A DNA stretch of 64,000 nucleotides from the IMG/VR virus record IMGVR_UViG_3300037418_001469. One strand, 5' to 3'. Position numbers and translations under genes: made by a program. Below are positions 7,288-64,000 of the stretch, in pieces. The notes beneath the pieces were generated by a model. That model saw only the letters and a list, made by a program, of their open reading frames with translations, had not been told where the DNA came from and searched no databases. The stretch's first letter is position 1. Each line of letters starts with the position of its first letter. This stretch comes from a virus.

Positions 7288-7314
7288 TTAAACTCCTCCT
7301 TTTATTTTACGTCT

Positions 7315-21569: not shown

Positions 21570-21618
21570 CTTTGTCACCCTTTCTAATTTTTCAACGTAT
21601 GGAGGAAACCCCCTACTA

Positions 21619-27600: not shown

Positions 27601-30600
27601 TTTGTTCCTTTCAATAGCCTTAGTGCTCATATCAGTTCCCATAATTGACGCATTTTTGCTTTCTTTCATGAACTGAATGTTGTCTAGTATAAAATGGTCA
27701 ATCTCAGTGTTCTTCTTTTTAGATATTTCTTTATCGCCTAACATAGCCTTGGAATTTTCTTGAAGATTTTTGTTTTGTGTTTTGTAATCTGAGTCAGCTT
27801 TCTTTTTTGCATTATCAATTACTTTATTAACAACCCACCAAGCAGTTGCTAATGCACTACCTATAACAAATAATCTTGACAGTATCAACCCAAAACGATA
27901 AAAAGAAGGACCCATTTTCTTGAACCATTCACCAAACGCTTTTAAAGCACCGCCACTTCTTTCAGCTACTCCTGCTCCTGCTCTCCTCATGCCACCATTT
28001 CTAAATGATGCTATCATTAAAGCATCACCAATAAAATTACCTACACTACCAATAGCCTTTCTTCCGCCACTAGCTACACTTCTACTAGCATTTGATATAT
28101 TTCCACGAATAATGGTTCCTCTGCTAGGCATAGGACCGTCTTCGAGTTCTCTGAGACCTTGTTGCATAGCTATACGATTGCTTCTAAATATTCCTTGAGC
28201 ACCATATCTTCCATAGAAAGTACTTACATCTCTAGAACCAACTGGCATAACTCTTGGGTGAGGTGTTCCGCCTAATATAGGCATGCTACCTAAAATATTT
28301 GTAGCCATGATAGCATTGTTAGGGTTCATAACTCTTGGGTGAGGTGTTCCTCCTAATACAGGAATACTATTTACTTTTCTACTATTAGTAGTTCCTACAG
28401 GAATCATTGGTAGCATATTACTAGCAATAATAGCACCATTTTGAGCAACCGTAGTTGCAACTTTAGGAGCAACTCTAGATGTAGATATTGGAATTGGAGC
28501 ACCTGATATTACTGTGCCTCCAACTGTGCCTGCAATCTGTTTGAATCCTGCTCTACGACCAGTTTTGCTTTGCAACCAATCTCCTATTGCTGAGCCTACT
28601 CCTGGAGTTAGTTTGTTGACTACAGTAGTTAAACCTTTAAATGCAAGCATTAATCCTGCTAGTTCCATAGCCATTTTAGGTAGGTTTGCAAAGATAGGCA
28701 AATTATCACTGAACACATCACTTAGTTTTTGCACAACACCTAGGACTCCGTTGATAGAACTAACGAATAGAGTTAATCCTTTCACAACTAAACCTATAGC
28801 ATCCATAAGTCCAAGTCTTGCTAATTGCTGAACCAATTCTTTAACTTGTTCACCAAGTTCCATAAAGTTTCTCTTTAGTGTATTTGAAAAAGTATCCCAA
28901 GATTTTTCTAATGCATTTGGGGTATCTTTATTTGCTTTATCAAACTGATTAACATAATCTGACGATATAGCTTCTAAAAACTTTGTCATTTTTGGTGTCA
29001 TAGCAGAAGACTTACCAGTAAGACCTGCCAATCCTTCTGCAACTTCGGCTTGGTCTTTTTGTAGAAGAGTTGGAAACTTAGCCATCACAGCATCAGCTAA
29101 TTTCTTAGGTGTGTTATATTCTTCTTTGCTTGGGTCAATATCCATTTTATCAAGTGCATTTTTAACTGTTGGATTGTTTGGTTTTGCTAAAGAACCAAAA
29201 AACAATTTACCAATCTGAGTCATATTAGCACCAGTAGCATCAACATCACTAAGATTATATGAACCTAACATACCTGCTACTAGTTTAGGGTCAATACCTT
29301 TCTTAATAGTATCAGGCGCTAGCTCTGACATGGCATCAGCAACAGCATTTGTGTTTACACCCTTACCCTTCATTATAGCCATATAATCTAATAATCTATC
29401 AATTTTACCCATATGGCTTGTTTCGCCTTGTGTATACATGGCTTGATATAGGGACATAACATCTTGAGAAATAGCACTTACTTCTTCTGCTGATGCATTG
29501 CCACCTGTTGAAACTGCCGAATATTGTATGATTTTATCGACCATTTGTTTTTGCATCTTAGGGTCAATTTTACCGTCTTTACCTTTAATTAGGTTAGTTC
29601 TCGCCAAAACTTGAGATTCAACAGGTAATACTGTTGACATAGTGCTAACTCCATATTTCTGACCAACATCAAATGCATTCTCTTGGATGGCTGTTCTTAT
29701 CTCATTTGAGCCTCTACCAAAAGACTTATAGGTGTTACTTACCGCACCAGTATTGAGATTTTGAGTAATCATCCCTACCTGAGCAAGTTGAGCATCAAAG
29801 TTAATCATATCTTGAATAGATTGAGCGATAGCTTGTGACATCATACGGAAACCACTAGTAAACAATGTGTAAACTCCAATATTTCGTAGCATGTTTCCTG
29901 CTAATGCTTTAAAACTTCTATCTCCACGCTCTACTTTATCTCCAAGGCTAGTATATTCATATGTCAATGTTCTAACAGAGCGAATATGTCCTTCGTCATC
30001 ACGATAATTAATTGCGTATGCTCTTTGGAAATTCTGTTTGTTTGCCTTAGCTTCAGCTTGATTTCTTGGATGAATCTGTTTATTTAGGATTTCTAGACTA
30101 TCAGATAGGCTAACATTTGGATTCCTTAATTGCGCTTCTAAGTCAATACCTCTGTATTCCTTACTGCCTCCGTAACGAATAATACCCTGATTATAGTCTG
30201 ATGACCTTTGTTGTCTTGCTGTTAGTCCATTATTTCCTGAATTAACATTAGCACTGAGTGATTGTCGTGCTTGCTGTTCTGCATTTTGTCTAGCTAATTC
30301 TCTTGCAGGGTGAAATTTAGGAAGACTACTAGCTTTACCCATAGGCATATTATTTAATTTTTCTTGTAACTTTATCGCCTGTTCAATCTGCCTAGTAAGT
30401 TGAGAGACAGGATGATTTCTAGACAAGTTACTAGCTTTACCAGTAGGAATACTGCTTAGTTTTTCTCCAAGATTTTTAGCCTGTTCCATTTGCTTGACAA
30501 GCTGAGAAACTGGATGGTTAGGATTCAGCTTTGTAGCTTTGCCTACAGGAGTACTATCTAATTTCTCCTGCATTTTTCTAGCCTGTTCCATTTGAGATAA

Positions 30601-31998: not shown

Positions 31999-32083
31999 TA
32001 GTATACCTCCTCATAAAATATACGTTCTTAAAGGAATAGGGGGATAGTTATATAAACCAACCCCCTAGCTAATCCCCTTACTA

Positions 32084-33756: not shown

Positions 33757-33860
33757 TACTCCTTTCCTTCTTAATCCTTTAAACCTATTTGTAGCCTTCT
33801 ATATTAAGTTTTTATATAGAACGTATGCACTAGCCCCAAAGAGGAACTAGTGCCATTATA

Positions 33861-50336: not shown

Positions 50337-51176
50337 TTGATAGATATGGAAAAATATTTAAAATACTTTTTAAACTATATTCGAACTGAAAAAAACTTAT
50401 CCGAGAACACAATTATTGGCTACAAAAAAGACCTAGAGCAATATCTTGATTCTTGCAATATCAAAGTATTGGAAGACCTAAATAAACACACGATAAGAGA
50501 TTTCCTCGCTAAGATAAATGACCTAGCACCAACGACTAGAAGACGTAAGCTAGCATCTATCAGAGGATTTTTTGGATTCTTATTTGATGAAGAAATTATT
50601 AATAAGAATGAATCGTTAAGCATTAAAAATGCTAAGATTGATAAAAAGTTGCCAGTGATTATGTCTGTAAATGAAACAGCTACCGTAATCGACTCAGCAT
50701 GTAGCAAACAAGATAAAGCAATTCTAGAAACGCTATATGGAACTGGTGCTCGTATATCTGAATTAGTTGGAATCCAAATATCTGATATTGACTTTGATGC
50801 TAGAACAGTTAGGTTGTTCGGAAAAGGAAACAAAGAGAGAATTGTACCGATTAACAATGCATCATTAATCGCCATAAAAGAACATCTGGATTCTAGAGGT
50901 TTCAATAGTCCTTATGTATTCGGTAGTAGAGTTACACCTAATCATCCAATGACAGCTAGAAATGCTCGTGAAAGAGTTTATAAGAGTGGTGGCAAGGAAG
51001 TTCACCCACACATGTTTAGACATAGCTATGCTACTCACTTGCATGCTAACGGTGCTAGTATTATGGATATCAAGGAAATGTTAGGTCATGCTGACATTAG
51101 CACAACACAAATATATACTCATGTAGCAAATGAACAAATGACTAGAACATATCGTCATTCTCACCCAAGGGGTTAA
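50337..51176 (+). CDS. XerC/D-like tyrosine recombinase
   Basis: TGARISEL, GKGNKER, HPHMFRHSYATH, LGHADISTTQIY catalytic motifs. Confidence 0.9.
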   Translation: MIDMEKYLKYFLNYIRTEKNLSENTIIGYKKDLEQYLDSCNIKVLEDLNKHTIRDFLAKINDLAPTTRRRKLASIRGFFGFLFDEEIINKNESLSIKNAKIDKKLPVIMSVNETATVIDSACSKQDKAILETLYGTGARISELVGIQISDIDFDARTVRLFGKGNKERIVPINNASLIAIKEHLDSRGFNSPYVFGSRVTPNHPMTARNARERVYKSGGKEVHPHMFRHSYATHLHANGASIMDIKEMLGHADISTTQIYTHVANEQMTRTYRHSHPRG

Positions 51177-52300: not shown

Positions 52301-53212
52301 TTAGCTACGCCAAAGACATTCTCCTGATATTTTTTCTTTAGTTAATTCGGTTATGAAAGATGAAATATCTAAGTCTCTGATTGCCTCCATAAGAGAAATA
52401 GTAGTTTGGAATACTCCGTATTCAGAAACCATTTCATCAATATCTGATAATGCTTTTTGAGAAACATTATTATCAGAGTATCTCTTAATAAAGTTGATTA
52501 TGTTATCTCTGTCATTTGAATGAACATGAGTTGGAACGGTTTTTGGAATCTCAACCTTCTGTTCTTCAATTTTTGATTCTTCAACTTTTAAAGGTTCGAC
52601 TTTCTCAACTTTAGGAACAACTGTTTCTGTATCTTGAATATTTGAATTGGCAATATCTTTGAAAGCAGGATTAATTTTTTCCTTACCACCAAGCGCTCTT
52701 GTAGAGAAACTCATTTTTCCATCATTATCAAGACGTTTTACTTTTACTCTAACTTTCTCGCCAATGTAAAAATAGTCATCAGGCAGGTCAACATATTGTC
52801 TACCTGTGATTTCTGAAACATGAATTAGTCCATCGAATCCTTCTTTGGTTTTTCCAAAAACTCCAAAATCATGAATAGATGTAATTTCAACTTCTAGTGT
52901 TTCTCCGATTTTATAAAAACTCCTAGGGTCTCTAAGGTCAGTTGTGACAGAGTTTACATAGTTGTTAATGCTCTCGTCTACATTCATTGGTTCTTCTAGT
53001 TTAGATTTGATATTGTTATAATAATAAAACTGTGCTGAACTTGCTGTGGTGTCTTTCTCCTTTGCAAAGTCTTTAAACAACACGGACAACGACTTCCTTT
53101 CCTGTTTAGTTTTTAAATTGTTCTCTATAACAACCTTCTCTAACTCCTTTCCTAGTTCAGTCCATTTTCCTTTCTCATAGGTTACTGTTGACATGAAAAA
53201 TTTCCTCCTCAT
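52301..53212 (-). CDS. S1 RNA-binding domain protein
   Basis: GETLEVEITSIHDFGVF..DGLIHVSEI..GEKVRVKV..SFS is a canonical S1 motif; probable start MSTVT at 53194. Confidence 0.8.
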   Translation of the reverse strand: MRRKFFMSTVTYEKGKWTELGKELEKVVIENNLKTKQERKSLSVLFKDFAKEKDTTASSAQFYYYNNIKSKLEEPMNVDESINNYVNSVTTDLRDPRSFYKIGETLEVEITSIHDFGVFGKTKEGFDGLIHVSEITGRQYVDLPDDYFYIGEKVRVKVKRLDNDGKMSFSTRALGGKEKINPAFKDIANSNIQDTETVVPKVEKVEPLKVEESKIEEQKVEIPKTVPTHVHSNDRDNIINFIKRYSDNNVSQKALSDIDEMVSEYGVFQTTISLMEAIRDLDISSFITELTKEKISGECLWRS

Positions 53213-53359: not shown

Positions 53360-53938
53360 ATGAGAGTAATCATATTGGAAGGTCCAAGATGTGTAGGAAA
53401 ATCAACGATTGCTAGAGCAATCAGAGAGAAAATTCCCGAAATTACGTTGGTGAACGCTACTGGATATCATTTGGACAATGAAGAAGGCAGAAAGAAAATA
53501 ATTGACTATTACTATAGTTGGATGAATATGATTAACAGTTTATCTAATACTGGTCACGATATTACATTTGTATTCGACAGATTCTTCTTTACAGAAAGAG
53601 TGTTTTCAGAGTTATACAAAGAGTATACTTTCGATTACTACGATATGTTTTGTGAGTGGCTAACTGATGTAGCAGAAGTAGATATCCTTTTCTTTACTAT
53701 TGATAATGTCGATGAATTAAAAGAGCGATTAAACAGAGATAAAGTTCCATTCGGAAAAGCAGAGGAAAGTGTAGTTGAAACACTCAAGCAACAAGATTTG
53801 TATGAAGATATTATGGTCGATTTTTACAGAGATTATTCAAGCGAATCAGCAAGATTACATACGATTGACACAAGTAATAAAAGTTTGGAAGAAATTCAAA
53901 ATGAAGTATTTAAAATAATTAAAAGAGAGGAGACTTAA
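53360..53938 (+). CDS. P-loop nucleotide monophosphate kinase (thymidylate kinase-like)
   Basis: ILEGPRCVGKST, FDRFF. Confidence 0.75.
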   Translation: MRVIILEGPRCVGKSTIARAIREKIPEITLVNATGYHLDNEEGRKKIIDYYYSWMNMINSLSNTGHDITFVFDRFFFTERVFSELYKEYTFDYYDMFCEWLTDVAEVDILFFTIDNVDELKERLNRDKVPFGKAEESVVETLKQQDLYEDIMVDFYRDYSSESARLHTIDTSNKSLEEIQNEVFKIIKREET

Positions 53939-53939
53939 A

Positions 53940-54695
53940 ATGAGAATTGGAATTGTATCAGATACCCATTCAAATGAACATGCTTTACGTTCTGTGCTAG
54001 AACATATGAATAGTGTCGGAGTAGATAAGAAAGTTCATTTGGGAGATATAGTTGGTTACGGACCGAGACCCAATGAGACATTGGCACTAACATTGGAACA
54101 TTTTAATTACATAATCAAAGGTAATCATGATTACGCTTGTGAGCGTGAAGAAAACACTTGGGGATTTAACCCTATGGCAAAAGAGGCTATCGAATGGACA
54201 GTAAATAAGCTGTCGAAAGAAGAAATCGAGGTGCTGACTAATCTGCCTTACGCACAGAACATTGGTGATACAATGTTTGTTCATGGTAGCCCATATTCTC
54301 CATTTGACTATATGGTTGACGAGAACGATGCCAAGTTAGCCTTTAGTAATGATGACTTTCAAGTAGCTTTTGTTGGTCACACACATGCTCCGTTTGTATG
54401 GTATGAAAAATCTATTGATAAGCCCGAATTTGAAAATACCTTAGTTCTAAACAATTATGGCATCATTGGTGCTTATGAAGTATTGTTGTCAAATAAAGGA
54501 AGAACAATTATTAATGTTGGCTCTGTAGGACAATCTCGTGATGGAGACAATCGTGCAACTTATGCTATTTATGATACACATCTCAATAGAGTAATCATTT
54601 ACAAAATCCCATATCCAGTTGACAGAGTAGTTGGACAAATGCAACGAGCAGGTTTTGATGAAAGACATTATCGAAGACTAATCTTTGGTAGGTAA
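53940..54695 (+). CDS. calcineurin-like metallophosphoesterase
   Basis: SDTH, GDIVGYG, GNHD, HG, GHTH motifs. Confidence 0.85.
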   Translation: MRIGIVSDTHSNEHALRSVLEHMNSVGVDKKVHLGDIVGYGPRPNETLALTLEHFNYIIKGNHDYACEREENTWGFNPMAKEAIEWTVNKLSKEEIEVLTNLPYAQNIGDTMFVHGSPYSPFDYMVDENDAKLAFSNDDFQVAFVGHTHAPFVWYEKSIDKPEFENTLVLNNYGIIGAYEVLLSNKGRTIINVGSVGQSRDGDNRATYAIYDTHLNRVIIYKIPYPVDRVVGQMQRAGFDERHYRRLIFGR

Positions 54696-54712: not shown

Positions 54713-55219
54713 ATGGATTTTAAGACACCAAAGGTGGTATGTGGAGTATGTAACGGAAAAGGTGGATTTAGAAAACTAAAAGATAATTTCCTTGATACAA
54801 ATTGGATTGATTGTGCATACTGTGAAGGATATGGTTTTGTTGATGACACTACCACCGAAGAAGAAGTAACAACACACCTTACATATAACCGATATAAAAC
54901 TAAGTTAGAATCATCATTCAGTATACTAGGAGAATTAAAGGTAGTCACATCAGAATCAGAAAAAACAGATATGTTTGTAAAAATTCTTCCATACAACAGA
55001 AAAAACTGGACTACCTTAATTAAGCACATATTAAAATTCTCGCATCATCACGATAAAATTAAAGTACTTCCTAAGCAAGCGTTTTATCATACAGATGATG
55101 AAACCCACTATATTGATTGGGAATTGCACATTACAATGCATACCCTAGAAGATTTAGATGGACTATTAGAACTAGTTCGCATGTATAATGACACATTAGC
55201 AGTAGGTGGTGGCATATGA
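54713..55219 (+). CDS. hypothetical protein with DnaJ-type zinc knuckle
   Basis: CGVCNGKG and CAYCEGYG. Confidence 0.65.
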   Translation: MDFKTPKVVCGVCNGKGGFRKLKDNFLDTNWIDCAYCEGYGFVDDTTTEEEVTTHLTYNRYKTKLESSFSILGELKVVTSESEKTDMFVKILPYNRKNWTTLIKHILKFSHHHDKIKVLPKQAFYHTDDETHYIDWELHITMHTLEDLDGLLELVRMYNDTLAVGGGI

Positions 55220-55986
55220 AATGTCTAGGATTAACATTCTTAGGAACTGGCAGTGCCTTCTCAAAGAAATTCGGAAATAACAGTGCGGTGGTTACGATAG
55301 GAGATAAGAATTTACTTATTGATTGCGGAAGAACAACACCAAATGATTTAGATAAATCTCAATTCTCATGGTCAGACATTGATGCTATTTTCATCACTCA
55401 TATTCACGGAGACCATGTATTTGGATTGGAAGAGGCAGGATTCATGGGTAGATTCGTTCTCAATAAAAAACCGCATATTATTTTCCCACATAAGAAGATT
55501 AAGCAAGACCTGTGGGAGAAAGTACTCAAAGGAACAATGATGCAAGGAGATTTAGACAGGAACATGACATTCGATGATTATTTTACATATGAAATTGTCG
55601 ATGAGAGAGAGCAATATTTCGAATTTAACGATGTAATGTTTTCTGTATTTTCAACACAACATGTCAAAAATAAAAAATCATATGGCTTAATTATTGGAGA
55701 GTATGATTATATAGTATATACATCAGACACACTTTTTGATAGTGAAATGGTAATTGCTTTCTACCAAGGTGGAGCACAAAAGATATTTCACGACTGTCAA
55801 ATGACAGATTACAAAGGAAAAGTACACGCATCACTAGATGAATTAGCTACATTACCAGAAGAAATTCGAGAGAAGACAGTTATTATGCACTACGGAGATG
55901 ACTTAGATGGCAATTTTACAAGAATTAAAGAATTAAAATTAGGAATAGCGTTGCCAAATATAACTCAAAAATTCGTAGTCAAATAG
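55216..55986 (+). CDS. apyc1: MBL-fold hydrolase, anti-Pycsar Apyc1-like
   Basis: GTGSAFSKKF.NNSA, LLIDCG, THIHGDH, GLEE, SDT.FD, FHDCQ, VHASLDEL, MHYGD match recalled Apyc1 motifs. Confidence 0.75.
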   Translation: MKCLGLTFLGTGSAFSKKFGNNSAVVTIGDKNLLIDCGRTTPNDLDKSQFSWSDIDAIFITHIHGDHVFGLEEAGFMGRFVLNKKPHIIFPHKKIKQDLWEKVLKGTMMQGDLDRNMTFDDYFTYEIVDEREQYFEFNDVMFSVFSTQHVKNKKSYGLIIGEYDYIVYTSDTLFDSEMVIAFYQGGAQKIFHDCQMTDYKGKVHASLDELATLPEEIREKTVIMHYGDDLDGNFTRIKELKLGIALPNITQKFVVK

Positions 55987-57269: not shown

Positions 57270-57522
57270 AAGAGAAGCAGTATTATCACTGTTGCTAGTG
57301 CAGTGTATCAAGCGACTTAGCAAGAATGGCAAACAAAAGGTACATATCACAAATGCAGAATTAAATAGATTAGTAGAAGGAAACTTTGAAGTTGATTTTA
57401 GCGAAAGCAATAGCGATAGATTTATTTTAAAATTAGTTAAAGGCGAACCGCTAGTTGGTCTCGAAGAAATTGTAGTTGAAGAAAATGTAGAGCTACCAAA
57501 AGAACTATTAGAAGAACAATAG
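57259..57522 (+). CDS. hypothetical protein
   Basis: AAGGAGG RBS. Confidence 0.7.
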   Translation: MATEREAVLSLLLVQCIKRLSKNGKQKVHITNAELNRLVEGNFEVDFSESNSDRFILKLVKGEPLVGLEEIVVEENVELPKELLEEQ

Positions 57523-57529
57523 TTTATCC

Positions 57530-57558
57530 TTGACTTTTTATTATAATTCATTTATAAT
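57530..57558 (+). promoter_or_regulatory. early sigmaA promoter
   Basis: TTGACT-17-TATAAT. Confidence 0.75.
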
Positions 57559-57564
57559 ATAATT

Positions 57565-57897
57565 ACCGAGATAAGCGTAACGCTTAATCAATTAGGAAAC
57601 TGTCAGATGGAAGATAGTAGGGTGGCAGAGAGTAGCAGGTGAATGGGGTTTATTCCTGCCGAATAATTATGAGAGGCTAGCATCTCATAGGAAGTGCATA
57701 TTGGAGTCGGTAGAGGGATGCACAGGGACAACATGGGTTAAAGTGTCTCGCCAAATAATGTTCTACTCTCAAAACTACCAAAATAGCGAATGTCATGGAG
57801 AAACAGAGTGCCTGTAAACAAACTATGATAGCTATGAAAGTGAATGACTGGTTCGGAACATCAAGGAAGGGCAAGGGGCAAAGCTAACGTCCCCCTT
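57565..57897 (+). ncRNA. large structured RNA, family unknown
   Basis: follows promoter, no plus-strand ORF; GAGAGTAG/CTACTCTC encloses several hairpins. Confidence 0.55.
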
Positions 57898-57947
57898 CTA
57901 ACGTAGAAATATCGTCATATTTGACGACATAGAAGGGAATGAGGAAT

Positions 57948-58064
57948 ATGAGAAAGTGTGAAAATTGCGGAAACGATAGAGAAGAGTATTTGAATCACTA
58001 CTGCAAGACGTGTTTAGATAAAATGACAGAAAATAACAGTGTAGTAATTCGAAAAGAATTGTGA
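57948..58064 (+). CDS. 38-aa zinc-finger microprotein
   Basis: MRKCENC...YCKTC; GAGG RBS; not in the ORF track. Confidence 0.55.
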   Translation: MRKCENCGNDREEYLNHYCKTCLDKMTENNSVVIRKEL

Positions 58065-58078
58065 TACAAAATTTATCC

Positions 58079-58107
58079 TTGACTTTTTAAAGGTCATATG
58101 ATATAAT
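58079..58107 (+). promoter_or_regulatory. early sigmaA promoter heading the DUF2828/RNA island
   Basis: TTGACT-17-TATAAT with extended TG. Confidence 0.75.
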
Positions 58108-58126
58108 ATATTTATAAGATAATGAG

Positions 58127-58309
58127 GTGATTGTTATAAAAGAAGAAATTAGATATGCTTTAGAAAATTTAAAAGATGAAGATAAAATCAAGTCTTTCTT
58201 AGAAAGACAGTCACACGATAGCTTATATTATATATTTACAATGTTAGAATATACAGATGTTGAAACATCTAATCTATGGACAAACACATATAATAGTTTA
58301 TTTAAATAA
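58127..58309 (+). CDS. hypothetical protein
   Basis: short ORF after promoter; start uncertain. Confidence 0.5.
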   Translation: MIVIKEEIRYALENLKDEDKIKSFLERQSHDSLYYIFTMLEYTDVETSNLWTNTYNSLFK

Positions 58310-58314
58310 TATCA

Positions 58315-58381
58315 GAGACACTCACAGCAATCCTACATACAAACAATTCAATTGGTGAATATTAAATGTATATAGTGTCTC
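58315..58381 (+). ncRNA. ACAGCAA-family RNA 1 (Y-RNA-like)
   Basis: GAGACACT/AGTGTCTC stem followed by ACAGCAA. Confidence 0.6.
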
Positions 58382-58392
58382 GTTAAACGTAA

Positions 58393-58485
58393 AAGACCCA
58401 AACAGCAAAACAATATAGTGCGATTGGTTCGCAATTTTTCTACTACGAAAATCTAAGAGGTTCAAATCCTCCTATAATGGGTCTT
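58393..58485 (+). ncRNA. ACAGCAA-family RNA 2 with tRNA-like D, anticodon-like and T arms
   Basis: AAGACCCA/TGGGTCTT stem; TAGTGCGATTGGTTCGCA; GAGG-TTCAAAT-CCTC. Confidence 0.65.
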
Positions 58486-58505
58486 GTCAAACGTATCTAA
58501 ACGTT

Positions 58506-58610
58506 GGCACATACAGCAATCCACTAACCTATACAGGAAAGTTCTCTACATTATGTAGACTTTAAAGATTGCTCGTGAAGAGCACGAAAAAATTTATCAT
58601 AGCTAGTGCC
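58506..58610 (+). ncRNA. ACAGCAA-family RNA 3
   Basis: GGCAC/GTGCC stem followed by ACAGCAA; internal hairpins. Confidence 0.55.
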
Positions 58611-58669
58611 TAGTAAACTAGAAGTCTATCTCCCCCAAGAGTCCACGTCGACGGGGAGATAAAACGTCC

Positions 58670-58726
58670 AGACATTAACAGCAACACAAAACAAATTTTC
58701 TTTGGATGAAAAATTATAATATGTCT
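58670..58726 (+). ncRNA. ACAGCAA-family RNA 4, abutting the RBS of the DUF2828 gene
   Basis: AGACAT/ATGTCT stem followed by ACAGCAA. Confidence 0.55.
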
Positions 58727-58733
58727 AGAAAGG

Positions 58734-60254
58734 ATGATTTATATGTTAAACCACTTAAAAAATGAAACTAATGTAGCATATACTACTAACGGTGCTAAGG
58801 CACTAAAAACATCTAACTCTTATCTTGTTGATTTCTTCGCATCATCTGGTGCACTGAGAAATCGTTCAAAAGAAGATATTAATCAATTGTTCTCTAAAGC
58901 ATTTGCAGAGGATAAATTATTGGCTATGAAAGCTTTATTCTATACTAGAGACATTCGTGGCGGACAAGGTGAGCGTGAAACATTTAAAACTATTATTAAA
59001 CAATTAGCTTTTACACATCCAGAAGTATTAGCTAGTAATATTAATTTAATTCCCTACTTTGGTCGATATGACGACTTACTAGTTTTGCTAGACACTCCTC
59101 TTGAAAAATTAGCTATGTCTATTATCAGAGCGCAACTACTTGAGGATTTAGATTTAGAGGCTCCTTCGCTATTAGCAAAATGGTTGCCATCTGAAAACGC
59201 ATCTTCTCGTGAAACTAAGCGTTTAGCTAAGAAGGTAGTATATAATTTAGGATTAACTCCTAAGCAATACCGTAAAACATTAACAACACTTCGCAAGAAG
59301 ATTAATATTGTTGAAGGTTTGATGTCAGCAAAGAAATTCAATGAAGTTGAATACGATAAAATTCCTTCTAAAGCAGGTCTGATTTATCGGAATGCATTTT
59401 ACCGAAATGACGGAGAACGATATACTGCATTTGTTGATTCACTTGTAAAGAGCGTGGAAAATAACGACAAAGAAACTAAAATTAATGTTAAGACATTGTT
59501 TCCATATGAGATTATTGGCAAATTCCCAATTACTATGACTACAGCAAATAACCGTCGTCATTATAATGCAGTAGTTGGTCATGCAAGCTCTCAAGATGAA
59601 AAGCTACTAGATGCTATGTGGAAGTCATTACCTGATTTTATTGGAGATAATTTTGATAACGCATTAGCAGTAGTAGATACATCAGGTTCTATGCGTGGAT
59701 TACCTATTCAAGTAGCACTTTCTTTAGGTCTTTACCTTGCCGAAAGAAATAAAGGAATTTTCAATAATCACTTTATTACATTCAGCAAAAAACCTGAATT
59801 ACAAGAAGTGTTAGGTGATACTTTAGGTGATAAGCTAAGAAATATGTCTCAAGCTGATTGGGACATGAATACTGATATTCAGTCTGTATTTAGCCTAATC
59901 CTTAACACTGCAATTAAGAATAATGTTCCGCAAGAAGAGTTACCATCTAAGATTTTCATTATCAGCGATATGGAATTTGATAAATGCGTAGGAAGTGGAA
60001 ACAATAAAACCGTCTTTGGTGAATTGGCTAATGACTTTGCTAAGTTTGGTTATGTTATTCCTGAACTAGTTTTTTGGAATGTTAATGCATTATCTACACA
60101 TTTTCCTGTTAAATACAATGAAACTGGAACTGCCCTTGTATCAGGTTGTTCGCCAACCGTCTTTAAGAATCTACTTGCAGGAAAAGAAATGACACCATAT
60201 GCAATGATGCTAGATGTACTTAATAATGAGCGTTACGATATTGTAATGGCATAA
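58734..60254 (+). CDS. DUF2828-family TROVE/Ro60-like protein with C-terminal vWA domain
   Basis: TTNGA..S..VDFF, RDIRGGQGER, AKWLP; MIDAS-type VVDTSGSM, IISDMEFD, LVFWNV. Confidence 0.75.
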   Translation: MIYMLNHLKNETNVAYTTNGAKALKTSNSYLVDFFASSGALRNRSKEDINQLFSKAFAEDKLLAMKALFYTRDIRGGQGERETFKTIIKQLAFTHPEVLASNINLIPYFGRYDDLLVLLDTPLEKLAMSIIRAQLLEDLDLEAPSLLAKWLPSENASSRETKRLAKKVVYNLGLTPKQYRKTLTTLRKKINIVEGLMSAKKFNEVEYDKIPSKAGLIYRNAFYRNDGERYTAFVDSLVKSVENNDKETKINVKTLFPYEIIGKFPITMTTANNRRHYNAVVGHASSQDEKLLDAMWKSLPDFIGDNFDNALAVVDTSGSMRGLPIQVALSLGLYLAERNKGIFNNHFITFSKKPELQEVLGDTLGDKLRNMSQADWDMNTDIQSVFSLILNTAIKNNVPQEELPSKIFIISDMEFDKCVGSGNNKTVFGELANDFAKFGYVIPELVFWNVNALSTHFPVKYNETGTALVSGCSPTVFKNLLAGKEMTPYAMMLDVLNNERYDIVMA

Positions 60255-60284
60255 TAAATGGAGGGGTAAAACCCTCTTATACGT

Positions 60285-60385
60285 GGAGAGCCTTGGCGGT
60301 GTAGTCCAACGAGACTATTGGTGGTTCGATTCCATCTGAAAACAGTGGCATGCAAATAATAGAGGGTTCGATTCCTTCCTCTCTC
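60285..60385 (+). ncRNA. tRNA-like RNA with two T-arms
   Basis: GGAGAG/CTCTC ends; GGTGG-TTCGATT-CCATC and GAGGG-TTCGATT-CCTTC; no anticodon arm. Confidence 0.55.
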
Positions 60386-60447
60386 AAAAACGTGAATGGC
60401 ATATTTTTCTATATAAGCAGAAGACTAAGACAACACACAAAAATACG

Positions 60448-60562
60448 TAGACACTTACAGCAATCAATCCTACAGGCACTTTAGGTTGGAGGTTAAAATC
60501 CTTCATGACTGAATCAGTCATTAGCTCAAATGTTAGAGCAAAAGTTTTGGATGATGTGTCTA
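60448..60562 (+). ncRNA. ACAGCAA-family RNA 5 with circularly permuted tRNA module (YrlA-like)
   Basis: TAGACAC/GTGTCTA stem; order is T arm, closed stem ATGACT/AGTCAT, then D arm TAGCTCAAATGTTAGAGC. Confidence 0.7.
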
Positions 60563-60568
60563 GATAAA

Positions 60569-60640
60569 CACTCTATAGTATAACGGTTAGTACATGGCTC
60601 TCATAAGGCTATGGTGGAAGTTCGATTCTTCCTAGAGTGA
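60569..60640 (+). tRNA. tRNA-Met/Ile (CAT)
   Basis: CACTCTA/TAGAGTG acceptor, loop CTCATAA, GTTCGATT. Confidence 0.75.
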
Positions 60641-60642
60641 TA

Positions 60643-60715
60643 TGCGGTGAGGACAAATGGTAAGTCACTAGTCTCATAAGCTAGAGATAGTTGGTTCGAT
60701 TCCAACCACTCGCAA
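60643..60715 (+). tRNA. tRNA-Met (CAT), bulged acceptor stem
   Basis: CTAGT-CTCATAA-GCTAG; GTTGG-TTCGATT-CCAAC. Confidence 0.7.
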
Positions 60716-60828
60716 TTGTAGGGTTGTAAGAGGTGAAAGTCCTCTACCCTTCACAAAACGTGTTGGTGGCGATTCTTAGGCTACTAGGTTGACAACCTTG
60801 TACGGTATACAGTGCAGAATAGTTGTTC

Positions 60829-60899
60829 GCTCTTATAGTATAATGGTATTACAGTTGACTTGTAATCATCTGATGGCAGTTCGATTCTGTCTAGGAGCA
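60829..60899 (+). tRNA. tRNA-Thr (TGT)
   Basis: GCTCTTA/TAGGAGC, loop CTTGTAA. Confidence 0.85.
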
Positions 60900-60915
60900 T
60901 CTTCGCCCATACGTA

Positions 60916-61224
60916 TCGTGTGAGTGACAGAGACTATACTACCGTCCGTACCCCCTGTATCGGGTCGATAATTGAAAACGGACAACCGCAATATCCAATA
61001 AGACCTAATCTAAGGCGATACACCTGACATGAGCACAGTAAAGGTTGAGGATAGAGGCAAGCTAGGTTGGTTTTTGGTATGAGCCTAGCATTTCTAATTG
61101 GTGTTGCACTACCTTATCTCAAATGTGCCCTATACAGATAGGAGGTCGTGCTCCTTATAATTAACCTGATAGATGGATGCTCTGCTCCCCATCGGCAAAG
61201 TTGGCAGGCAACGTTAAAACACGA
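60916..61224 (+). ncRNA. large structured RNA, family unknown
   Basis: TCGTGT/ACACGA closing stem; GTCCGT/ACGGAC, GAGCAC/GTGCTC, GCTAGG/CCTAGC; no ORF. Confidence 0.5.
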
Positions 61225-61232
61225 AATATCAA

Positions 61233-61303
61233 TGGGGTGTGGTATAATGGTAACACCTACGGTTTGGGACCGTATGTTGCGAGTTCGATTCTCGCCACTC
61301 CAA
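61233..61303 (+). tRNA. tRNA-Pro (TGG)
   Basis: TACGG-TTTGGGA-CCGTA; T arm GCGAG-TTCGATT-CTCGC. Confidence 0.85.
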
Positions 61304-61347
61304 TAAGTCTTTTATCATCTGTGCTTCACAAAACGTGAGGTGATAAA

Positions 61348-61779
61348 ATGACAAAGAAAATTGAATATGATACAAATGAAAAAGGTTGCATGCTAGTAAC
61401 ATCGCATTACAAGTCTAACACAGGTCATGTGCAGTTAAGAAGAGATGGTAAGGTGCAATGGTTACATAGATATGTTTACGAGCAAGAATTTGGAGAGATT
61501 CCAGAAGGAATGGTTGTAAGACATAAATGTGACAACCCATCGTGTATGAATATTGACCATTTAGAATTAGGAACCCATGTTGATAATGTCAATGATAGAG
61601 TGAAACGTAGAAGGTCTGCAACAGGAACTTCAAATGGTCGCTCTAAATTAACAGAAGAACAAGCTAGGTTTATCAAACACGACAATGAGTACTCTAATGC
61701 AGAGTTATCTAGAATGTTTAATATTAATGCCAAAGTTATTTATGAAATAAAACGAAATTTAAAATGGAAACATGTATAA
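61348..61779 (+). CDS. HNH homing endonuclease
   Basis: HR.VYE..VVRHKCDNPSCMNIDHLELGTHVDNVND and C-terminal HTH; inserted in tRNA array. Confidence 0.9.
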   Translation: MTKKIEYDTNEKGCMLVTSHYKSNTGHVQLRRDGKVQWLHRYVYEQEFGEIPEGMVVRHKCDNPSCMNIDHLELGTHVDNVNDRVKRRRSATGTSNGRSKLTEEQARFIKHDNEYSNAELSRMFNINAKVIYEIKRNLKWKHV

Positions 61780-61794
61780 GTGTTTCCTTACTTT

Positions 61795-61868
61795 GGACCC
61801 TTAGTTTAATGGTAAAACTCTTGGCTCATAACCGAGGTTCGCTAGTTCGATTCTAGCAGGGTCCACCA
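61795..61868 (+). tRNA. tRNA-Ile2 (CAT, lysidine type) or Met
   Basis: GGACCCT/AGGGTCC-ACCA resembles Bacillus tRNA-Ile2; loop CTCATAA. Confidence 0.85.
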
Positions 61869-61879
61869 AATATTATCAT

Positions 61880-61939
61880 GTCGGGTAGGTCAAACGATAC
61901 TAGTCACTCGTGAGGTGAGATTCCTCCCACTCGGCTCCA
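61880..61939 (+). ncRNA. truncated tRNA-like RNA ending in CCA
   Basis: GTCGGGT/ACTCGGC-TCCA; GAGG-TGAGATT-CCTC T-like arm; 60 nt. Confidence 0.45.
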
Positions 61940-61945
61940 AATTAT

Positions 61946-62016
61946 GTGGAATTAGTATAGCGGTAATACATGTGCTTGCCAAGCATAAATCACGAGTTCG
62001 ACCCTCGTATTCCACA
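61946..62016 (+). tRNA. tRNA-Gly (GCC)
   Basis: TGTGC-TTGCCAA-GCATA. Confidence 0.85.
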
Positions 62017-62025
62017 TCTTATTTT

Positions 62026-62097
62026 GCCCTCTTAATGTAAAGGATAACATGTGTGGTTTCTACCCACGAAATAGGGGTTCGACTCCTCTAGAGGGTG
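62026..62097 (+). tRNA. tRNA-Arg (TCT)
   Basis: TGTGG-TTTCTAC-CCACG. Confidence 0.8.
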
Positions 62098-62102
62098 TTT
62101 AT

Positions 62103-62194
62103 GGAGTGTTGGGTGAGTGGCTAAAACCATCAGTTTGCTAAACTGACGAGGGACAGAAATGCGACCTCCATCCGTTCGAATCGGATACGCTCCT
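62103..62194 (+). tRNA. tRNA-Ser (GCT)
   Basis: TCAGT-TTGCTAA-ACTGA, long variable arm. Confidence 0.85.
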
Positions 62195-62203
62195 TATCCA
62201 TAT

Positions 62204-62274
62204 GTGGTGTTAGTATAGTGGCAATACTCCTGTCTTCCAAACAGGCATCATCAGTTCAAATCTGATACACCACA
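62204..62274 (+). tRNA. tRNA-Gly (TCC)
   Basis: CCTGT-CTTCCAA-ACAGG. Confidence 0.85.
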
Positions 62275-62294
62275 CTTTTATTATGTCTAAACGT

Positions 62295-62370
62295 AGGGAA
62301 TTAGCGTATAGTGGTTAACGCCAGTTAGAGTTATCTCTAGAGTAAGAAGGTTCGATTCCTTCATTCCCCA
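62295..62370 (+). ncRNA. tRNA-like RNA lacking a normal anticodon loop
   Basis: intact acceptor, D and T arms; middle arm TAGAG-TTAT-CTCTA has a 4-nt loop. Confidence 0.6.
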
Positions 62371-62378
62371 AAAACGTT

Positions 62379-62462
62379 ACGGTCAAGGTTTTATGCCTAC
62401 CTACTTAGTATTCTAGAAAAACTTTGCAAGGTGGTCGAAGGGTTCGATTCCTTTCAACCGTT
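62379..62462 (+). ncRNA. T-arm RNA family B, copy 1
   Basis: TCAAGGTTTT.TGCCT..TATTCTAGA.AAACTTT..TGGTCG..GGTTCGATTCCT. Confidence 0.6.
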
Positions 62463-62547
62463 AAAACGTGAGTTATCTGAGGTGTCCATAAATCCTCACT
62501 CAGTCGGTAATTCTGTTGATGTAAGTCCAACAGAGGTTGCGACAAAC

Positions 62548-62634
62548 GTGCGTTCAAGGTTTTTGCCTGTCTTATTGGACTTATTCTAGATAAACTTTAA
62601 GATGGTCGGTAGGTTCGATTCCTACCAATCGTAC
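62548..62634 (+). ncRNA. T-arm RNA family B, copy 2
   Basis: same motif blocks as 62379-62462 with different stems. Confidence 0.6.
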
Positions 62635-62796
62635 AAACGTGCAGAAAGTGTCACATATCTTTAAGGCATATTGCCACTAAGCCCATTAGTAGATATGTAT
62701 GGGAGACACTTAGCATCAACACACCAGTATACACAGCTTAGTCATAGCAACTGCCTTTACAGAATTTAAAAATATATTCTAAAGGAGAATGATAAA

Positions 62797-63084
62797 ATGT
62801 CTTATCCAATTATCTATGAAAAAACTATAGGAAGTCGCCCAACGGCAGTTCCATATCCTAATGATACTGTTGGACAAACAAATGCTATGAAACAAGCAGA
62901 AGATATTGCAAAAAAAGAGTTATTTGATTTATTGATTAACGAGGCTTTTACAGGTAGTAATAAGTTCGCAACCGATGTAACTTTAACAACTGAAATAGTT
63001 ACTGACCTAAATGGAAATAAAACTGTTAAATCTATTGCACAATCAAAAATCTTCAAACGAACAGACATTGTATATCCTGTTTAA
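62797..63084 (+). CDS. hypothetical protein
   Basis: AAGGAG RBS, 95 aa. Confidence 0.65.
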   Translation: MSYPIIYEKTIGSRPTAVPYPNDTVGQTNAMKQAEDIAKKELFDLLINEAFTGSNKFATDVTLTTEIVTDLNGNKTVKSIAQSKIFKRTDIVYPV

Positions 63085-63179
63085 TTAAATAAGGAGAAAG
63101 ATTCGTCTTTCTTCTAACGTGCATGGTTCACACAATCTCATTTTATCGTACCTCCGTGGGAGATTATTCTCCCTCTTAT

Positions 63180-63253
63180 GCGAGTTTAGTTTAAAGGCAG
63201 AACTAAGGTCTCCAAAACCTTCGGTAGGGGTTCGACTCCTCTAACTCGTGCCA
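63180..63253 (+). tRNA. tRNA-Trp (CCA)
   Basis: AAGGT-CTCCAAA-ACCTT; encoded 3' GCCA. Confidence 0.9.
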
Positions 63254-63284
63254 ACGTGATTAACATAATACCAACTCCTTTTTT

Positions 63285-63314
63285 TACTAGGCTTAATTGC
63301 CTAGTATTTTTTTT
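63285..63314 (+). terminator. intrinsic terminator closing the RNA island
   Basis: TACTAGGC/GCCTAGTA followed by T8. Confidence 0.75.
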
Positions 63315-63335
63315 GAATTTTTTTCTAGTTTGTCC

Positions 63336-63365
63336 TTGACTTTACCCTATTCTACCATTTATAAT
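63336..63365 (+). promoter_or_regulatory. early sigmaA promoter
   Basis: TTGACT-18-TATAAT. Confidence 0.65.
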
Positions 63366-63466
63366 ACAATTATAAGATAAAACGTAACCCAAATAACTCC
63401 TGATAAACAAGAGGACACACAGCCATGAGGCAGGACGTTTTATCAATAACGTAGGAGGTTGGTAGA

Positions 63467-64000
63467 ATGAAAAATTGCACTAAACACTTTTTGGAGCGTT
63501 GGACAGAAAGGATTGTCGGAATTAAAACTGACAAAGAAAGAAATGACTACATAACCAGTAACAGACAAATGATTATTGACCATGCCAATACAACTTTTGA
63601 ACATGCAGACTTTATCTACACTGGTCAGATTGGAAATAACACAGTAAAGAACTTCTACATTAAAGATGATATTATCTTTGTCGCTAATACCTCTAATGAT
63701 GCCCTTATCACTGTTTATAAGATTGACCTAGGCTTTACCCCTGAGTTGAATGTAACGGTTCGTAGAGGCTTACTAGAGGAGATTAGAAGGCTTACCGCTG
63801 AACACGAGGAAATCGAACTACAGGCTATGTTAGAGGTCGATAAAAAGTACGAAGAGGCAGATAAAATGGAAGACCAAATTAAAATCATGAAAGAGCAGTT
63901 GTTGCTAATGGAGAAACAAAGAGACTTTGTTAAACAAGAGGCTAACATGCTTAAGTCAAGGTCTTTAAATACTGGACTAGAGTTAAAGAAATTTACTACA
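63467..64000 (+). CDS. hypothetical protein, partial; N-terminal RelE/DUF4258-like pattern followed by coiled coil
   Basis: AGGAGG RBS; MKNCTKHFLERWTERI...LITVYK; open to window end. Confidence 0.7.
   Translation, partial: MKNCTKHFLERWTERIVGIKTDKERNDYITSNRQMIIDHANTTFEHADFIYTGQIGNNTVKNFYIKDDIIFVANTSNDALITVYKIDLGFTPELNVTVRRGLLEEIRRLTAEHEEIELQAMLEVDKKYEEADKMEDQIKIMKEQLLLMEKQRDFVKQEANMLKSRSLNTGLELKKFTT

What the first reader, a model, noticed from the sequence alone, without database searches (positions are those of the whole stretch)
57886..63452. AACGT motif punctuates the non-coding RNA island at unit boundaries
Counted by eye: 19 intergenic AACGT (57886, 57900, 58386, 58490, 58500, 58663, 60389, 60757, 61210, 61332, 62290, 62373, 62465, 62545, 62636, 63116, 63253, 63381, 63448) plus TACGT at 60280, 60444 and 60910. 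Most lie within a few nt of the start or end of a structured unit, mainly the non-canonical RNAs, and are usually preceded by extra A's on the plus strand. Inference: a sequence-specific endoribonuclease site that cuts a polycistronic precursor into individual RNAs, in the way MazF- or ToxN-type enzymes recognise short motifs.
Basis: partly seen in the sequence, partly recalled or inferred. Interest (0 to 1): 0.8.

Follow-up and report, generated by a model that had tools for sequence, protein, structure and literature searches.

The report
Phage RNA punctuation motif (A)ACGU
An uncultured phage marks the ends of its tRNAs, tRNA mimics, Y-RNA-like RNAs and several mRNAs with the short signal (A/U)ACGU, a sequence it otherwise avoids, which most likely tells an unidentified RNA-cutting enzyme where to cut long transcripts.

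Summary
Observation confirmed and extended. All 19 intergenic AACGT and 3 TACGT sites exist on the transcribed strand. AACGT is the most enriched 5-mer in the island's non-coding DNA: 19 seen, 0.68 expected from the rest of the 126-kb genome, 3.6 from dinucleotide shuffles. Elsewhere ACGT is about 4-5-fold depleted.

Two related viral contigs keep the motif at the same unit boundaries while the linkers vary. More distant DUF2828 phages lack it.

New points:
- ACGU starts exactly at tRNA position 77. It follows encoded CCA in 5 of 29 CCA-tRNAs (about 0.1 expected) and follows N73-AAA in four tRNA mimics.
- The same signal, "hairpin, 1-11 nt, WACGU, AU-rich, Shine-Dalgarno", occurs as single sites between late genes. 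These sites are conserved at orthologous positions in both relatives.

Best reading (~0.55): an RNA processing or 3'-end-defining signal, cut at or just after position 76. The enzyme is unidentified. The record holds no MazF/PemK, ToxN, RtcB or RNA ligase gene. Coding-strand mRNAs show no sense-specific avoidance of AACGU, and folding calculations do not show the sites to be unusually accessible. So the MazF/ToxN analogy is only partly supported.

The scan held no look-alike on other DNA. No paper on an (A)ACGU nuclease was found.

The parts
57886..57890 (+). AACGT in the terminal hairpin of the ~335-nt promoter-driven RNA (57565-57900)
57900..57904 (+). AACGT directly after the GAAGGG/CCCTTC hairpin, 14 nt after the previous site, upstream of the small ORF at 57939
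58386..58390 (+). AACGT between Y-like (ACAGCAA) units 1 and 2; conserved in L063 and L064
58490..58504 (+). Tandem pair AACGT-N5-AACGT between Y-like units 2 and 3; the relatives have one copy
58663..58667 (+). AACGT after the TCTCCCC/GGGGAGA hairpin (helix + UAAA + ACGU), before Y-like unit 4 in the DUF2828 5' UTR
58734..60254 (+). DUF2828/DUF7788-vWA (Ro60-like) gene inside the island
   Evidence: PF25043 2.8e-49, PF11443 4.8e-32
60280..60284 (+). TACGT after the 3' hairpin of the DUF2828 mRNA (helix + UUAU + ACGU), abutting tRNA-like unit U5
60389..60393 (+). AACGT ending tRNA-like U5 (T arm-N12-AAACGT, that is N73-AAA-ACGU)
60444..60448 (+). TACGT abutting the 5' stem of the YrlA-like unit (60448-60565)
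   Evidence: (RF02553 30.3 bits, E 0.0017, below the gathering score of 69)
60757..60761 (+). AACGT after the acceptor/T-arm minihelix that closes the block of Y-like unit, two tRNAs and minihelix
60910..60914 (+). TACGT 11 nt after tRNA-Thr, at the start of a ~300-nt unassigned RNA
61210..61214 (+). AACGT at the end of the ~300-nt unassigned RNA (60915-61214)
61332..61336 (+). AACGT immediately 5' of the Shine-Dalgarno site of the HNH endonuclease gene (61348-61779)
62290..62294 (+). AACGT 15 nt after tRNA-Gly(UCC), 1 nt before tRNA-like U11
62373..62377 (+). AACGT ending U11 (N73-AAA-ACGU) and starting U12
62465..62469 (+). AACGT ending U12 (N73-AAA-ACGU) and starting U13
62545..62549 (+). 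AACGT ending U13 and starting U14
62636..62640 (+). AACGT ending U14 (N73-CAA-ACGU, same register as the AAA units)
63116..63120 (+). AACGT after the 3' hairpin of the 95-aa ORF (helix + UCUA + ACGU)
63253..63257 (+). A76 of tRNA-Trp (encoded CCA) followed directly by ACGT
63381..63385 (+). AACGT about 10 nt after the predicted start of the next operon's transcript; conserved in L063
63448..63452 (+). AACGT immediately 5' of the AGGAGG of the 193-aa ORF
32022..32026 (-). Single intercistronic site: hairpin, 10 nt, AACGU, AU-rich, GAGGAGG, before the 3459-aa ORF; orthologous sites in G001 (4365) and G002 (13250)
33821..33825 (-). Single intercistronic site: GCACTAG/CTAGTGC hairpin + A + UACGU; orthologue in G002 (15040)
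21595..21599 (-). Single intercistronic site: hairpin + UACGU + Shine-Dalgarno site; the orthologue in G002 (2947) reads AACGU
7309..7313 (-). Single intercistronic site: GCCCC-ttcg-GGGGC hairpin + AG + ACGU + AAGGAGG

Best explanation
(A/U)ACGU is an RNA-level processing or 3'-end-defining signal. Long phage transcripts are cut at the motif, most likely at or immediately 3' of the nucleotide preceding ACGU. That nucleotide is tRNA position 76. The cutting enzyme is a sequence-specific endoribonuclease not yet identified, encoded by the host or the phage.

The upstream product keeps a helix plus a short tail of about 4 nt: NCCA on tRNAs, NAAA on tRNA mimics, a protective hairpin on mRNAs. The downstream product starts at the next RNA unit, or a few nucleotides before a strong Shine-Dalgarno site. 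The motif is used where no adjacent tRNA would give an RNase P cut.

Shown: the enrichment, strand bias, conservation, register and contexts. Inferred: that cleavage occurs, where it occurs, and that one enzyme reads the motif.
For: - Enrichment against a depleted background: 19 observed against 0.68 or 3.6 expected in island non-coding DNA. ACGT in CDS is 50, against 175 to about 235 expected.
- Strand bias: 19 on the transcribed strand, 4 on the other.
- Conservation: the motif is invariant at the U1|U2, U2|U3 and U3|U4 boundaries in L063 and L064, while the linkers differ in length and sequence.
- Register: ACGT starts directly after encoded CCA in the window's tRNA-Trp and in L064 tRNA-Asp, His, Gln and Trp. 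That is 5 of 29 CCA-tRNAs, against about 0.1 expected. L063 tRNA-Trp has CCA-A-ACGT. Four tRNA mimics share T arm-N12-AAACGT although their acceptor strands differ.
- CCA-tRNAs followed within 3-8 nt by another tRNA lack the motif.
- Single sites of the form hairpin-WACGU-SD lie between late genes. They are conserved in G001 and G002, where they are the only intergenic ACGT in 26 and 31 kb.
- Several sites abut Shine-Dalgarno sequences.
- Endonucleolytic cutting right after an encoded CCA exists in nature, and B. subtilis RNase Z is strongly inhibited by CCA (PMC7479834). A Bacillus-type host would therefore leave a gap for such a signal.
Against: - There are no RNA-end data.
- No candidate nuclease was established. 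PemK, ToxN, RtcB and RNA ligase families are absent from the record. The record is only about 74% complete by CheckV.
- Coding mRNAs show no sense-specific avoidance of AACGU: observed/expected is 0.27 on the sense strand against 0.18 for ACGUU. The -1 base of the remaining coding sites is not shifted away from A/U.
- Predicted accessibility of the sites is no higher than for controls.
- Position -1 is not always A/U (GACGU at 7309).
- Only three related genomes carry the motif, so there is no phylogenetic profiling power.
Confidence: 0.55

Rival explanations
1. Decoy or sponge for a host ACGU-specific defence RNase, by analogy with pseudo-ToxI. The abundant island RNAs carry many copies of the target motif to titrate or inhibit a host toxin. 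The phage purges ACGU from its ORFs for the same reason.
For: ACGU is 4-5-fold depleted in CDS. The motif is clade-specific, as expected for a host-specific enzyme.
Against: The exact register at position 77 and the single conserved sites between late genes just upstream of Shine-Dalgarno sequences point to use as processing sites rather than to titration. The depletion is symmetric and is accompanied by total loss of GATC, CCGG and GGCC, which looks like restriction avoidance. No such toxin is known.
Confidence: 0.12
2. The self-complementary ACGU copies that flank a unit pair with each other. This 4-bp extension of the terminal helix is cut by a double-strand-specific RNase: RNase III, Mini-III, or an RNase M5-like Toprim enzyme such as the phage's 133-aa Toprim protein.
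For: MFE folds of many units pair the 5' and 3' ACGU across a 4-5-nt 3' bulge. A stand-alone Toprim protein whose only NCBIfam hit is RNase M5 (E 1.9e-5, far below the cut-off) lies 1.1 kb downstream and is conserved in L001.
Against: Any repeated palindrome pairs in silico. Many sites are single, with no partner ACGU within hundreds of bases, including the late intercistronic sites and the CCA-ACGU sites of canonical tRNAs whose 5' leaders lack ACGU. In arrays each motif would have to serve two mutually exclusive helices. A Toprim homologue (52% identity) occurs in Bacillus phage HSE3, which has no ACGT depletion or punctuation in the 40 kb examined.
Confidence: 0.1
3. The motif is a binding site for an RNA-binding protein, or a stop or entry mark for exonucleases, rather than an endonuclease site. 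Candidates are the DUF2828 Ro60-like protein or the phage S1-domain protein. The motif would set the ends indirectly.
For: The island encodes a Ro60-like protein, and Ro60 proteins engage helix-plus-3'-tail RNAs (PMC4201824; general knowledge). An S1-domain protein of 302 aa is conserved next to the island. The helix-N4-ACGU geometry is recurrent.
Against: DUF2828 phages of other clades have the same Y-like RNAs without the motif, so DUF2828 does not need it. Sites in front of late-gene Shine-Dalgarno sequences have no link to Y-like RNAs.
Confidence: 0.1
4. The signal acts at the DNA level. It could be the junction or core site of recombined RNA-gene cassettes (a tyrosine recombinase gene lies at 50337-51176), a strand-specific nicking site, or a site kept for a modification system.
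For: The ACGT core is palindromic. Unit content differs greatly between relatives: 10, 24 and 24 tRNAs. Units are each flanked by the motif. A recombinase gene is present.
Against: The 5' A-run and 3' purine make the site asymmetric and always on the transcribed strand. The register to tRNA position 76, the placement after mRNA hairpins and before Shine-Dalgarno sites, and the conservation at orthologous sites where no cassette differs are all RNA-logical. Five base pairs is too short for known recombinases or homing enzymes.
Confidence: 0.08

Closest known systems
ToxIN-type (type III) toxin-antitoxin RNA processing, and phage pseudo-ToxI
   Same: A short single-stranded motif punctuates a multi-unit RNA precursor and is read by a sequence-specific endoribonuclease. 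Phages can carry such arrays.
   Different: The units here are heterogeneous: 80-300 nt, comprising tRNAs, tRNA mimics, Y-like RNAs and mRNAs. There are no tandem repeats and no ToxN gene in the record. The motif is (A/U)ACGU, not AAAU.
MazF/PemK mRNA interferases (for example B. subtilis EndoA, U^ACAU; from general knowledge)
   Same: These enzymes read 3-7-nt single-stranded RNA motifs.
   Different: There is no PemK-family gene in the record. UACAU is not avoided (ratio 1.11). There is no sense-specific avoidance of AACGU. No MazF with ACGU specificity was found in the literature searched.
Endonucleolytic cleavage directly after encoded CCA by archaeal (PMC7479834) and, from general knowledge, Thermotoga RNase Z
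   Same: The inferred cut lies after position 76 of CCA-containing precursors and of acceptor-stem-bearing mimics. Those enzymes tolerate the loss of other arms.
   Different: Those enzymes read tRNA shape, not a downstream sequence. The phage's RNase Z-like protein is a genuine Apyc1-family member (PDB 7u2r, E 4e-46), with RNase Z similarity only in the N-terminal half.
Phage intercistronic processing sites (T7 RNase III sites; T4 RegB at GGAG; from general knowledge)
   Same: Conserved signals between cistrons leave a 3' hairpin on the upstream mRNA and a short leader on the downstream one. RegB is a phage-encoded sequence-specific RNase.
   Different: RNase III cuts inside the helix, whereas this motif lies 1-11 nt 3' of it. 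RegB destroys Shine-Dalgarno sites, whereas this motif spares them. The motif is also shared with tRNA and ncRNA ends.
Bacterial Ro60 (Rsr)/Y RNA modules (PMC4201824)
   Same: The context matches: a Ro60-like DUF2828-vWA gene surrounded by Y-like RNAs with tRNA-like modules. There is a weak YrlA hit.
   Different: The punctuation motif is not part of that system. Other DUF2828 phages have the ACAGCAA RNAs but no AACGU.

Membership tests
MazF/PemK-type cleavage site | A PemK/MazF-fold toxin gene is available to read the motif | tested here: not met
   PF02452 search of the whole record found no match at E<=1. The host genome is unknown, so a host enzyme is not excluded.
MazF/PemK-type cleavage site | Target mRNAs under selection avoid the motif on the sense strand specifically | tested here: not met
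   Observed/expected: sense AACGT 0.27, ACGTT 0.18, TACGT 0.26, ACGTA 0.26. The -1 base of coding ACGT sites is A21 T15 G11 C3, close to composition. The depletion is of the palindrome ACGT.
MazF/PemK-type cleavage site | Products carry 5'-OH and 2',3'-cyclic phosphate ends | not testable with these tools
   Needs end-specific RNA sequencing.
ToxIN / type III TA | The antitoxin is a tandem array of near-identical repeats of about 34-36 nt | tested here: not met
   TRF finds no array in 57500-63600. The units align only at the T arm and the motif.
ToxIN / type III TA | An adjacent ToxN/AbiQ-family nuclease gene | tested here: not met
   PF13958 is absent from the record.
Restriction-site avoidance (DNA level) | Symmetric depletion of a palindrome over the whole genome | tested here: met
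   ACGT in CDS: 50, against 175 (Markov) to about 235 (synonymous shuffles). GATC, CCGG and GGCC are all 0. This explains the background, not the local strand-specific enrichment.
Double-strand processing stalk (RNase III / Mini-III / RNase M5) | The two cut sites lie in one helix formed by the 5' and 3' flanks of the unit | tested here: inconclusive
   Flanking ACGU pairs appear in MFE folds. However, many sites are single, and the motif is invariant, so covariation cannot be scored.
RNase Z-type cut after position 73 or 76 | The 3' boundary is in fixed register with the acceptor stem | tested here: met
   ACGU begins at position 77 in 5 CCA-tRNAs and 4 tRNA mimics.
RNase Z-type cut after position 73 or 76 | A bona fide RNase Z enzyme (TIGR02651, with the tRNA-binding exosite) | tested here: not met
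   The phage MBL protein scores 73 bits against a cut-off of 293, over the N-terminal half only. It matches Apyc1 over its full length.
Ro60/Y RNA module (context only) | A TROVE-like/vWA protein plus Y RNA with a tRNA-like domain | tested here: inconclusive
   DUF2828 and DUF7788 score above the Pfam cut-offs. YrlA scores 30.3 bits against a gathering score of 69. ACAGCAA RNAs are widespread next to DUF2828 genes.

The most novel reading that the evidence does not exclude
A dedicated endoribonuclease of unknown family, phage- or host-encoded, reads W^ACGU next to a helix. It sets the mature 3' ends at position 76 of phage tRNAs, of tRNA mimics that end in AAA instead of CCA, of Y-like RNAs and of late mRNAs. 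In this reading the genome-wide ACGU avoidance is at least partly RNA-level self-protection against that enzyme. This would be a new sequence-specific RNA maturation system organising a whole phage transcriptome.
Probability: 0.22. Interest if true: 0.8.

Novelty: new variant of a known kind. Interest (0 to 1): 0.62.

Why it matters
If (A/U)ACGU is a cleavage signal, three things follow.
- It defines a new RNase specificity.
- It shows a phage organising tRNA, decoy-RNA and mRNA maturation with a single 5-nt code.
- It gives exact predicted ends for a family of tRNA mimics (NAAA-3') and Ro60-associated Y-like RNAs whose function is unknown.

It would also offer a compact, portable processing signal for multi-RNA expression in Gram-positive hosts. 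If it is not a cleavage signal, a strongly conserved, strand-specific 5-mer kept against 4-5-fold genome-wide counter-selection still needs an explanation.

Tried and rejected
1. Sense-strand avoidance test for an mRNA interferase. There is no asymmetry.
2. In-silico accessibility and exterior-loop tests. The sites are no more unpaired than controls. The truncated-fold 'tail' test was not discriminating, because controls also score high.
3. Search for the same punctuation in other DUF2828 phages: Tsamsa, PK-3 and about 80 metagenomic or viral loci. It is absent, although the ACAGCAA Y-like RNAs are present.
4. Signature scan for T arm-N12-AAACGT in IMG/VR. It gave 17 singletons without AACGT enrichment, which are chance hits.
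5. Candidate nucleases:
   - PemK, ToxN, RtcB and RNA ligase families are absent.
   - The Toprim 133-aa protein is only weakly RNase M5-like. A homologue sits in phage HSE3, which has no punctuation.
   - The MBL protein is a genuine Apyc1.
   - The 193-aa ORF downstream of the island has no informative hit and is missing at the syntenic place in G001.
   - The 168-aa ORF is uninformative.
6. Host identification through DUF2828 in bacterial genomes. The best hit is only 51% identical, in Halobacillus, so no host could be assigned.
7. Promoter reading. There is no second conserved element at fixed spacing downstream of the motif.
8. Literature. No paper pairs AACGU or ACGU with a specific endoribonuclease.
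Full report
**What the window is.** The window is 64 kb of a 126,449-bp IMG/VR virus record, classed as a provirus and about 74% complete by CheckV. It has Firmicutes-type TTGACT/TATAAT promoters.

The stretch 57.5-63.5 kb is an RNA island on the + strand. It holds:
- 10 canonical tRNAs;
- a YrlA-like hit below the Rfam gathering score (30.3 bits, E 0.0017);
- several Y-like RNAs with an ACAGCAA box, tRNA mimics, and two unassigned RNAs of about 300 nt;
- a DUF2828/DUF7788-vWA (Ro60-like) gene and an HNH gene.

Upstream, in the same orientation, lie a P-loop kinase, a metallophosphoesterase, an Apyc1 anti-Pycsar protein and a MazE-like peptide. An S1-domain protein gene lies upstream on the opposite strand. 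A small Toprim protein lies downstream.

Every listed site exists.
- 20 of the 23 plus-strand AACGT of the window, and 20 of the 38 of the whole genome, lie in 57886-63452. AAACGT: 14 of 16 genome copies are in the island.
- In the island's 3,371 non-coding bases AACGT occurs 19 times, against 0.68 expected from the rest of the genome. It is the most enriched 5-mer, ahead of the T-loop word.
- Shuffles that keep the island's own dinucleotides give 3.6 ± 1.8, with a maximum of 10 in 1000.
- Only 4 copies are on the other strand.

**The background is depleted.**
- ACGT in ORFs is 50, against 175 (maximal-order Markov) or about 235 (synonymous-codon shuffles). GATC, CCGG and GGCC are absent from all 126 kb.
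- The depletion is symmetric: observed/expected is AACGT 0.27, ACGTT 0.18, TACGT 0.26, ACGTA 0.26 on the sense strand. The base before the remaining coding ACGT follows composition.
- So mRNAs are not purged of AACGU in a sense-specific way. Because the core is a palindrome, this test cannot tell RNA-level from DNA-level selection on ACGT itself. The company of other lost palindromes favours restriction avoidance.
- Other DUF2828 phages (L010, L011) also lack ACGT without having the punctuation.
- Either way, the island keeps 26 copies of a word that the genome otherwise sheds.

**Conservation.** Two viral contigs with 72-73% identical DUF2828 proteins and the same gene order keep AACGT at the same boundaries between Y-like units 1|2, 2|3 and 3|4. 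The flanking linkers differ in length and sequence.

More distant DUF2828 loci do not have the motif. This covers Tsamsa, PK-3, a 67% relative and about 80 others. They do carry the ACAGCAA RNAs, separated by AU-rich linkers. A signature scan of IMG/VR found no further clade. The motif is therefore a recent, clade-specific and selected feature.

**Anatomy.** Across 39 boundary sites in the three genomes the consensus is a pyrimidine-rich 3' helix strand, then (A/C)-A-A, then ACGU, then a purine. The -1 position is biased by how the sites were chosen.

*First, the register.* ACGU begins at tRNA position 77.
- It follows the encoded CCA directly in the window's tRNA-Trp and in L064 tRNA-Asp, His, Gln and Trp. 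That is 5 of 29 CCA-tRNAs, against about 0.1 expected.
- It follows CCA-A in L063 tRNA-Trp.
- Four tRNA mimics with unrelated acceptor strands all read T arm-N12-AAACGT, that is N73-AAA-ACGU.
- CCA-tRNAs followed within 3-8 nt by another tRNA have no motif. The signal appears where RNase P would not supply a nearby cut.

*Second, the motif is not confined to the island.* Single sites of the form 'strong hairpin, 1-11 nt, WACGU, AU-rich, Shine-Dalgarno' lie between late genes on the other strand.
- In the window they are at 32022, 33821, 21595 and 7309. Two more lie in the same genome outside the window.
- Their orthologues in G001 and G002 are conserved. They are the only intergenic ACGT in 26 and 31 kb.
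- The same hairpin-N4-ACGU module ends the DUF2828 mRNA and the 95-aa-ORF mRNA. Several island sites abut Shine-Dalgarno sequences.

**Mechanism.** These contexts fit an RNA processing signal best. The upstream product is left with a helix and a short tail: NCCA, NAAA, or a protective hairpin. The downstream product starts at the next unit or just before a strong Shine-Dalgarno site. The position-77 register argues that the cut, or the final 3' end, lies at or just after the base preceding ACGU.

Cleavage right after an encoded CCA is known for archaeal RNase Z, and B. subtilis RNase Z is strongly inhibited by CCA (PMC7479834). A Bacillus-like host therefore has no direct endonuclease for such ends. 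All of this is inference. No RNA ends are available, and folding calculations do not show the sites to be unusually accessible.

**Who cuts is unknown.**
- The record has no PemK/MazF, ToxN, RtcB or RNA ligase family member.
- The MBL protein is a genuine Apyc1 (PDB 7u2r, E 4e-46). Its RNase Z similarity is limited to the N-terminal half (PMC9117128).
- The 133-aa Toprim protein's only NCBIfam hit is RNase M5, far below the cut-off. A homologue sits in Bacillus phage HSE3, which shows neither ACGT depletion nor punctuation in 40 kb.
- No host could be assigned.

**Rivals.**
- *ACGU:ACGU pairing into a double-stranded stalk.* This appears in MFE folds. It is contradicted by the many single sites and by canonical tRNAs whose leaders lack ACGU.
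- *A decoy for a host ACGU-specific toxin.* This fits the anti-defence neighbourhood, but not the exact register or the late-gene sites.
- *A protein-binding mark.* This remains possible. DUF2828 itself does not need the motif, because other clades lack it.
- *DNA-level readings.* These do not explain the strand asymmetry, the tRNA register or the placement relative to Shine-Dalgarno sites.

**Comparison and novelty.** The logic resembles ToxN/ToxI, CRISPR repeat processing, T7 RNase III sites and T4 RegB, but membership in each fails on tested features. There are no tandem repeats and no ToxN or PemK gene, and the motif lies outside the helix. No paper linking AACGU or ACGU to a nuclease was found. 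The scan holds no look-alike elsewhere.

I rate it a new variant of a known kind of signal. The probability that it is a processing signal is about 0.55, and the interest is moderately high.

Noticed in passing
window 1-64000 and the whole genome (G000): GATC, CCGG and GGCC are completely absent from 126 kb, and CGCG occurs once. Synonymous shuffles of the CDS predict about 270, 47, 55 and 32. This is extreme avoidance of four-base palindromes, shared by the relatives G001 and G002.
   Followed up: partly
window 60285-60388, 62295-62372, 62378-62464, 62550-62635: Four tRNA mimics with a canonical GGTTCGATTCC T arm and an acceptor-like stem carry N73-AAA (or CAA) where tRNAs have N73-CCA. One (U5) contains two T arms. 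If they are cut before ACGU they would end in AAA-3' and could not be aminoacylated.
   Followed up: partly
window 58310-58733, 60448-60565; loci L004, L010, L011, L065-L072, L077: Y-like RNAs with the box RGRCNC-NN-ACAGCAA occur in up to 14 copies beside DUF2828 genes in many unrelated phage and metagenome contigs. The first copy often starts at a promoter. This is a widespread family, apparently uncurated, linked to the Ro60-like protein.
   Followed up: partly
window 55216-55986 (+): Apyc1 anti-Pycsar phosphodiesterase (PF23023, 134 bits; PDB 7u2r, E 4e-46). At about 80% identity it is the best-conserved protein of the neighbourhood in both relatives. RNase Z models match only its N-terminal half.
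   Followed up: yes
window 53360-54695 (+): An adjacent P-loop kinase (192 aa) and a YfcE-like metallophosphoesterase (251 aa). The phosphoesterase is conserved in both relatives and the kinase in one. The pairing recalls RNA end-healing (kinase plus phosphatase), but no ligase was found in the record.
   Followed up: partly
L005:6631-7029 (-), about 1.1 kb beyond the window's right end: A stand-alone 133-aa Toprim protein with motifs IVEG..D, TDGT and DPDEAGD. Its only NCBIfam hit is RNase M5 (E 1.9e-5), and its nearest PDB relative is a 'small TOPRIM domain protein' (2fcj). Homologues are annotated as primase in Bacillus phages and as ribonuclease M5 in an Exiguobacterium phage.
   Followed up: partly
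window 60915-61214 and 57565-57900 (+): Two structured non-coding RNAs of about 300 and 335 nt, bounded by the motif, with no Rfam match at E<=1.
   Followed up: no
window 21619-31998 (-): A single 3,459-aa ORF among the late genes, preceded by one of the conserved hairpin-AACGU-SD sites. Its N-terminal 665 aa and six neighbouring late ORFs gave no PHROG hit at E<=1e-5.
   Followed up: no
window 52301-53212 (-): A 302-aa protein with a central S1 RNA-binding domain (CvfD/GSP13-like, E 7e-15) and unassigned N- and C-terminal parts. It is conserved in both relatives, next to a phage sigma factor gene.
   Followed up: no
window 54713-55219 (+): A 168-aa protein with two DnaJ-type CxxCxGxG zinc-finger motifs at the N terminus and an unassigned C-terminal domain. 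It is conserved in both relatives, between the phosphoesterase and Apyc1.
   Followed up: no
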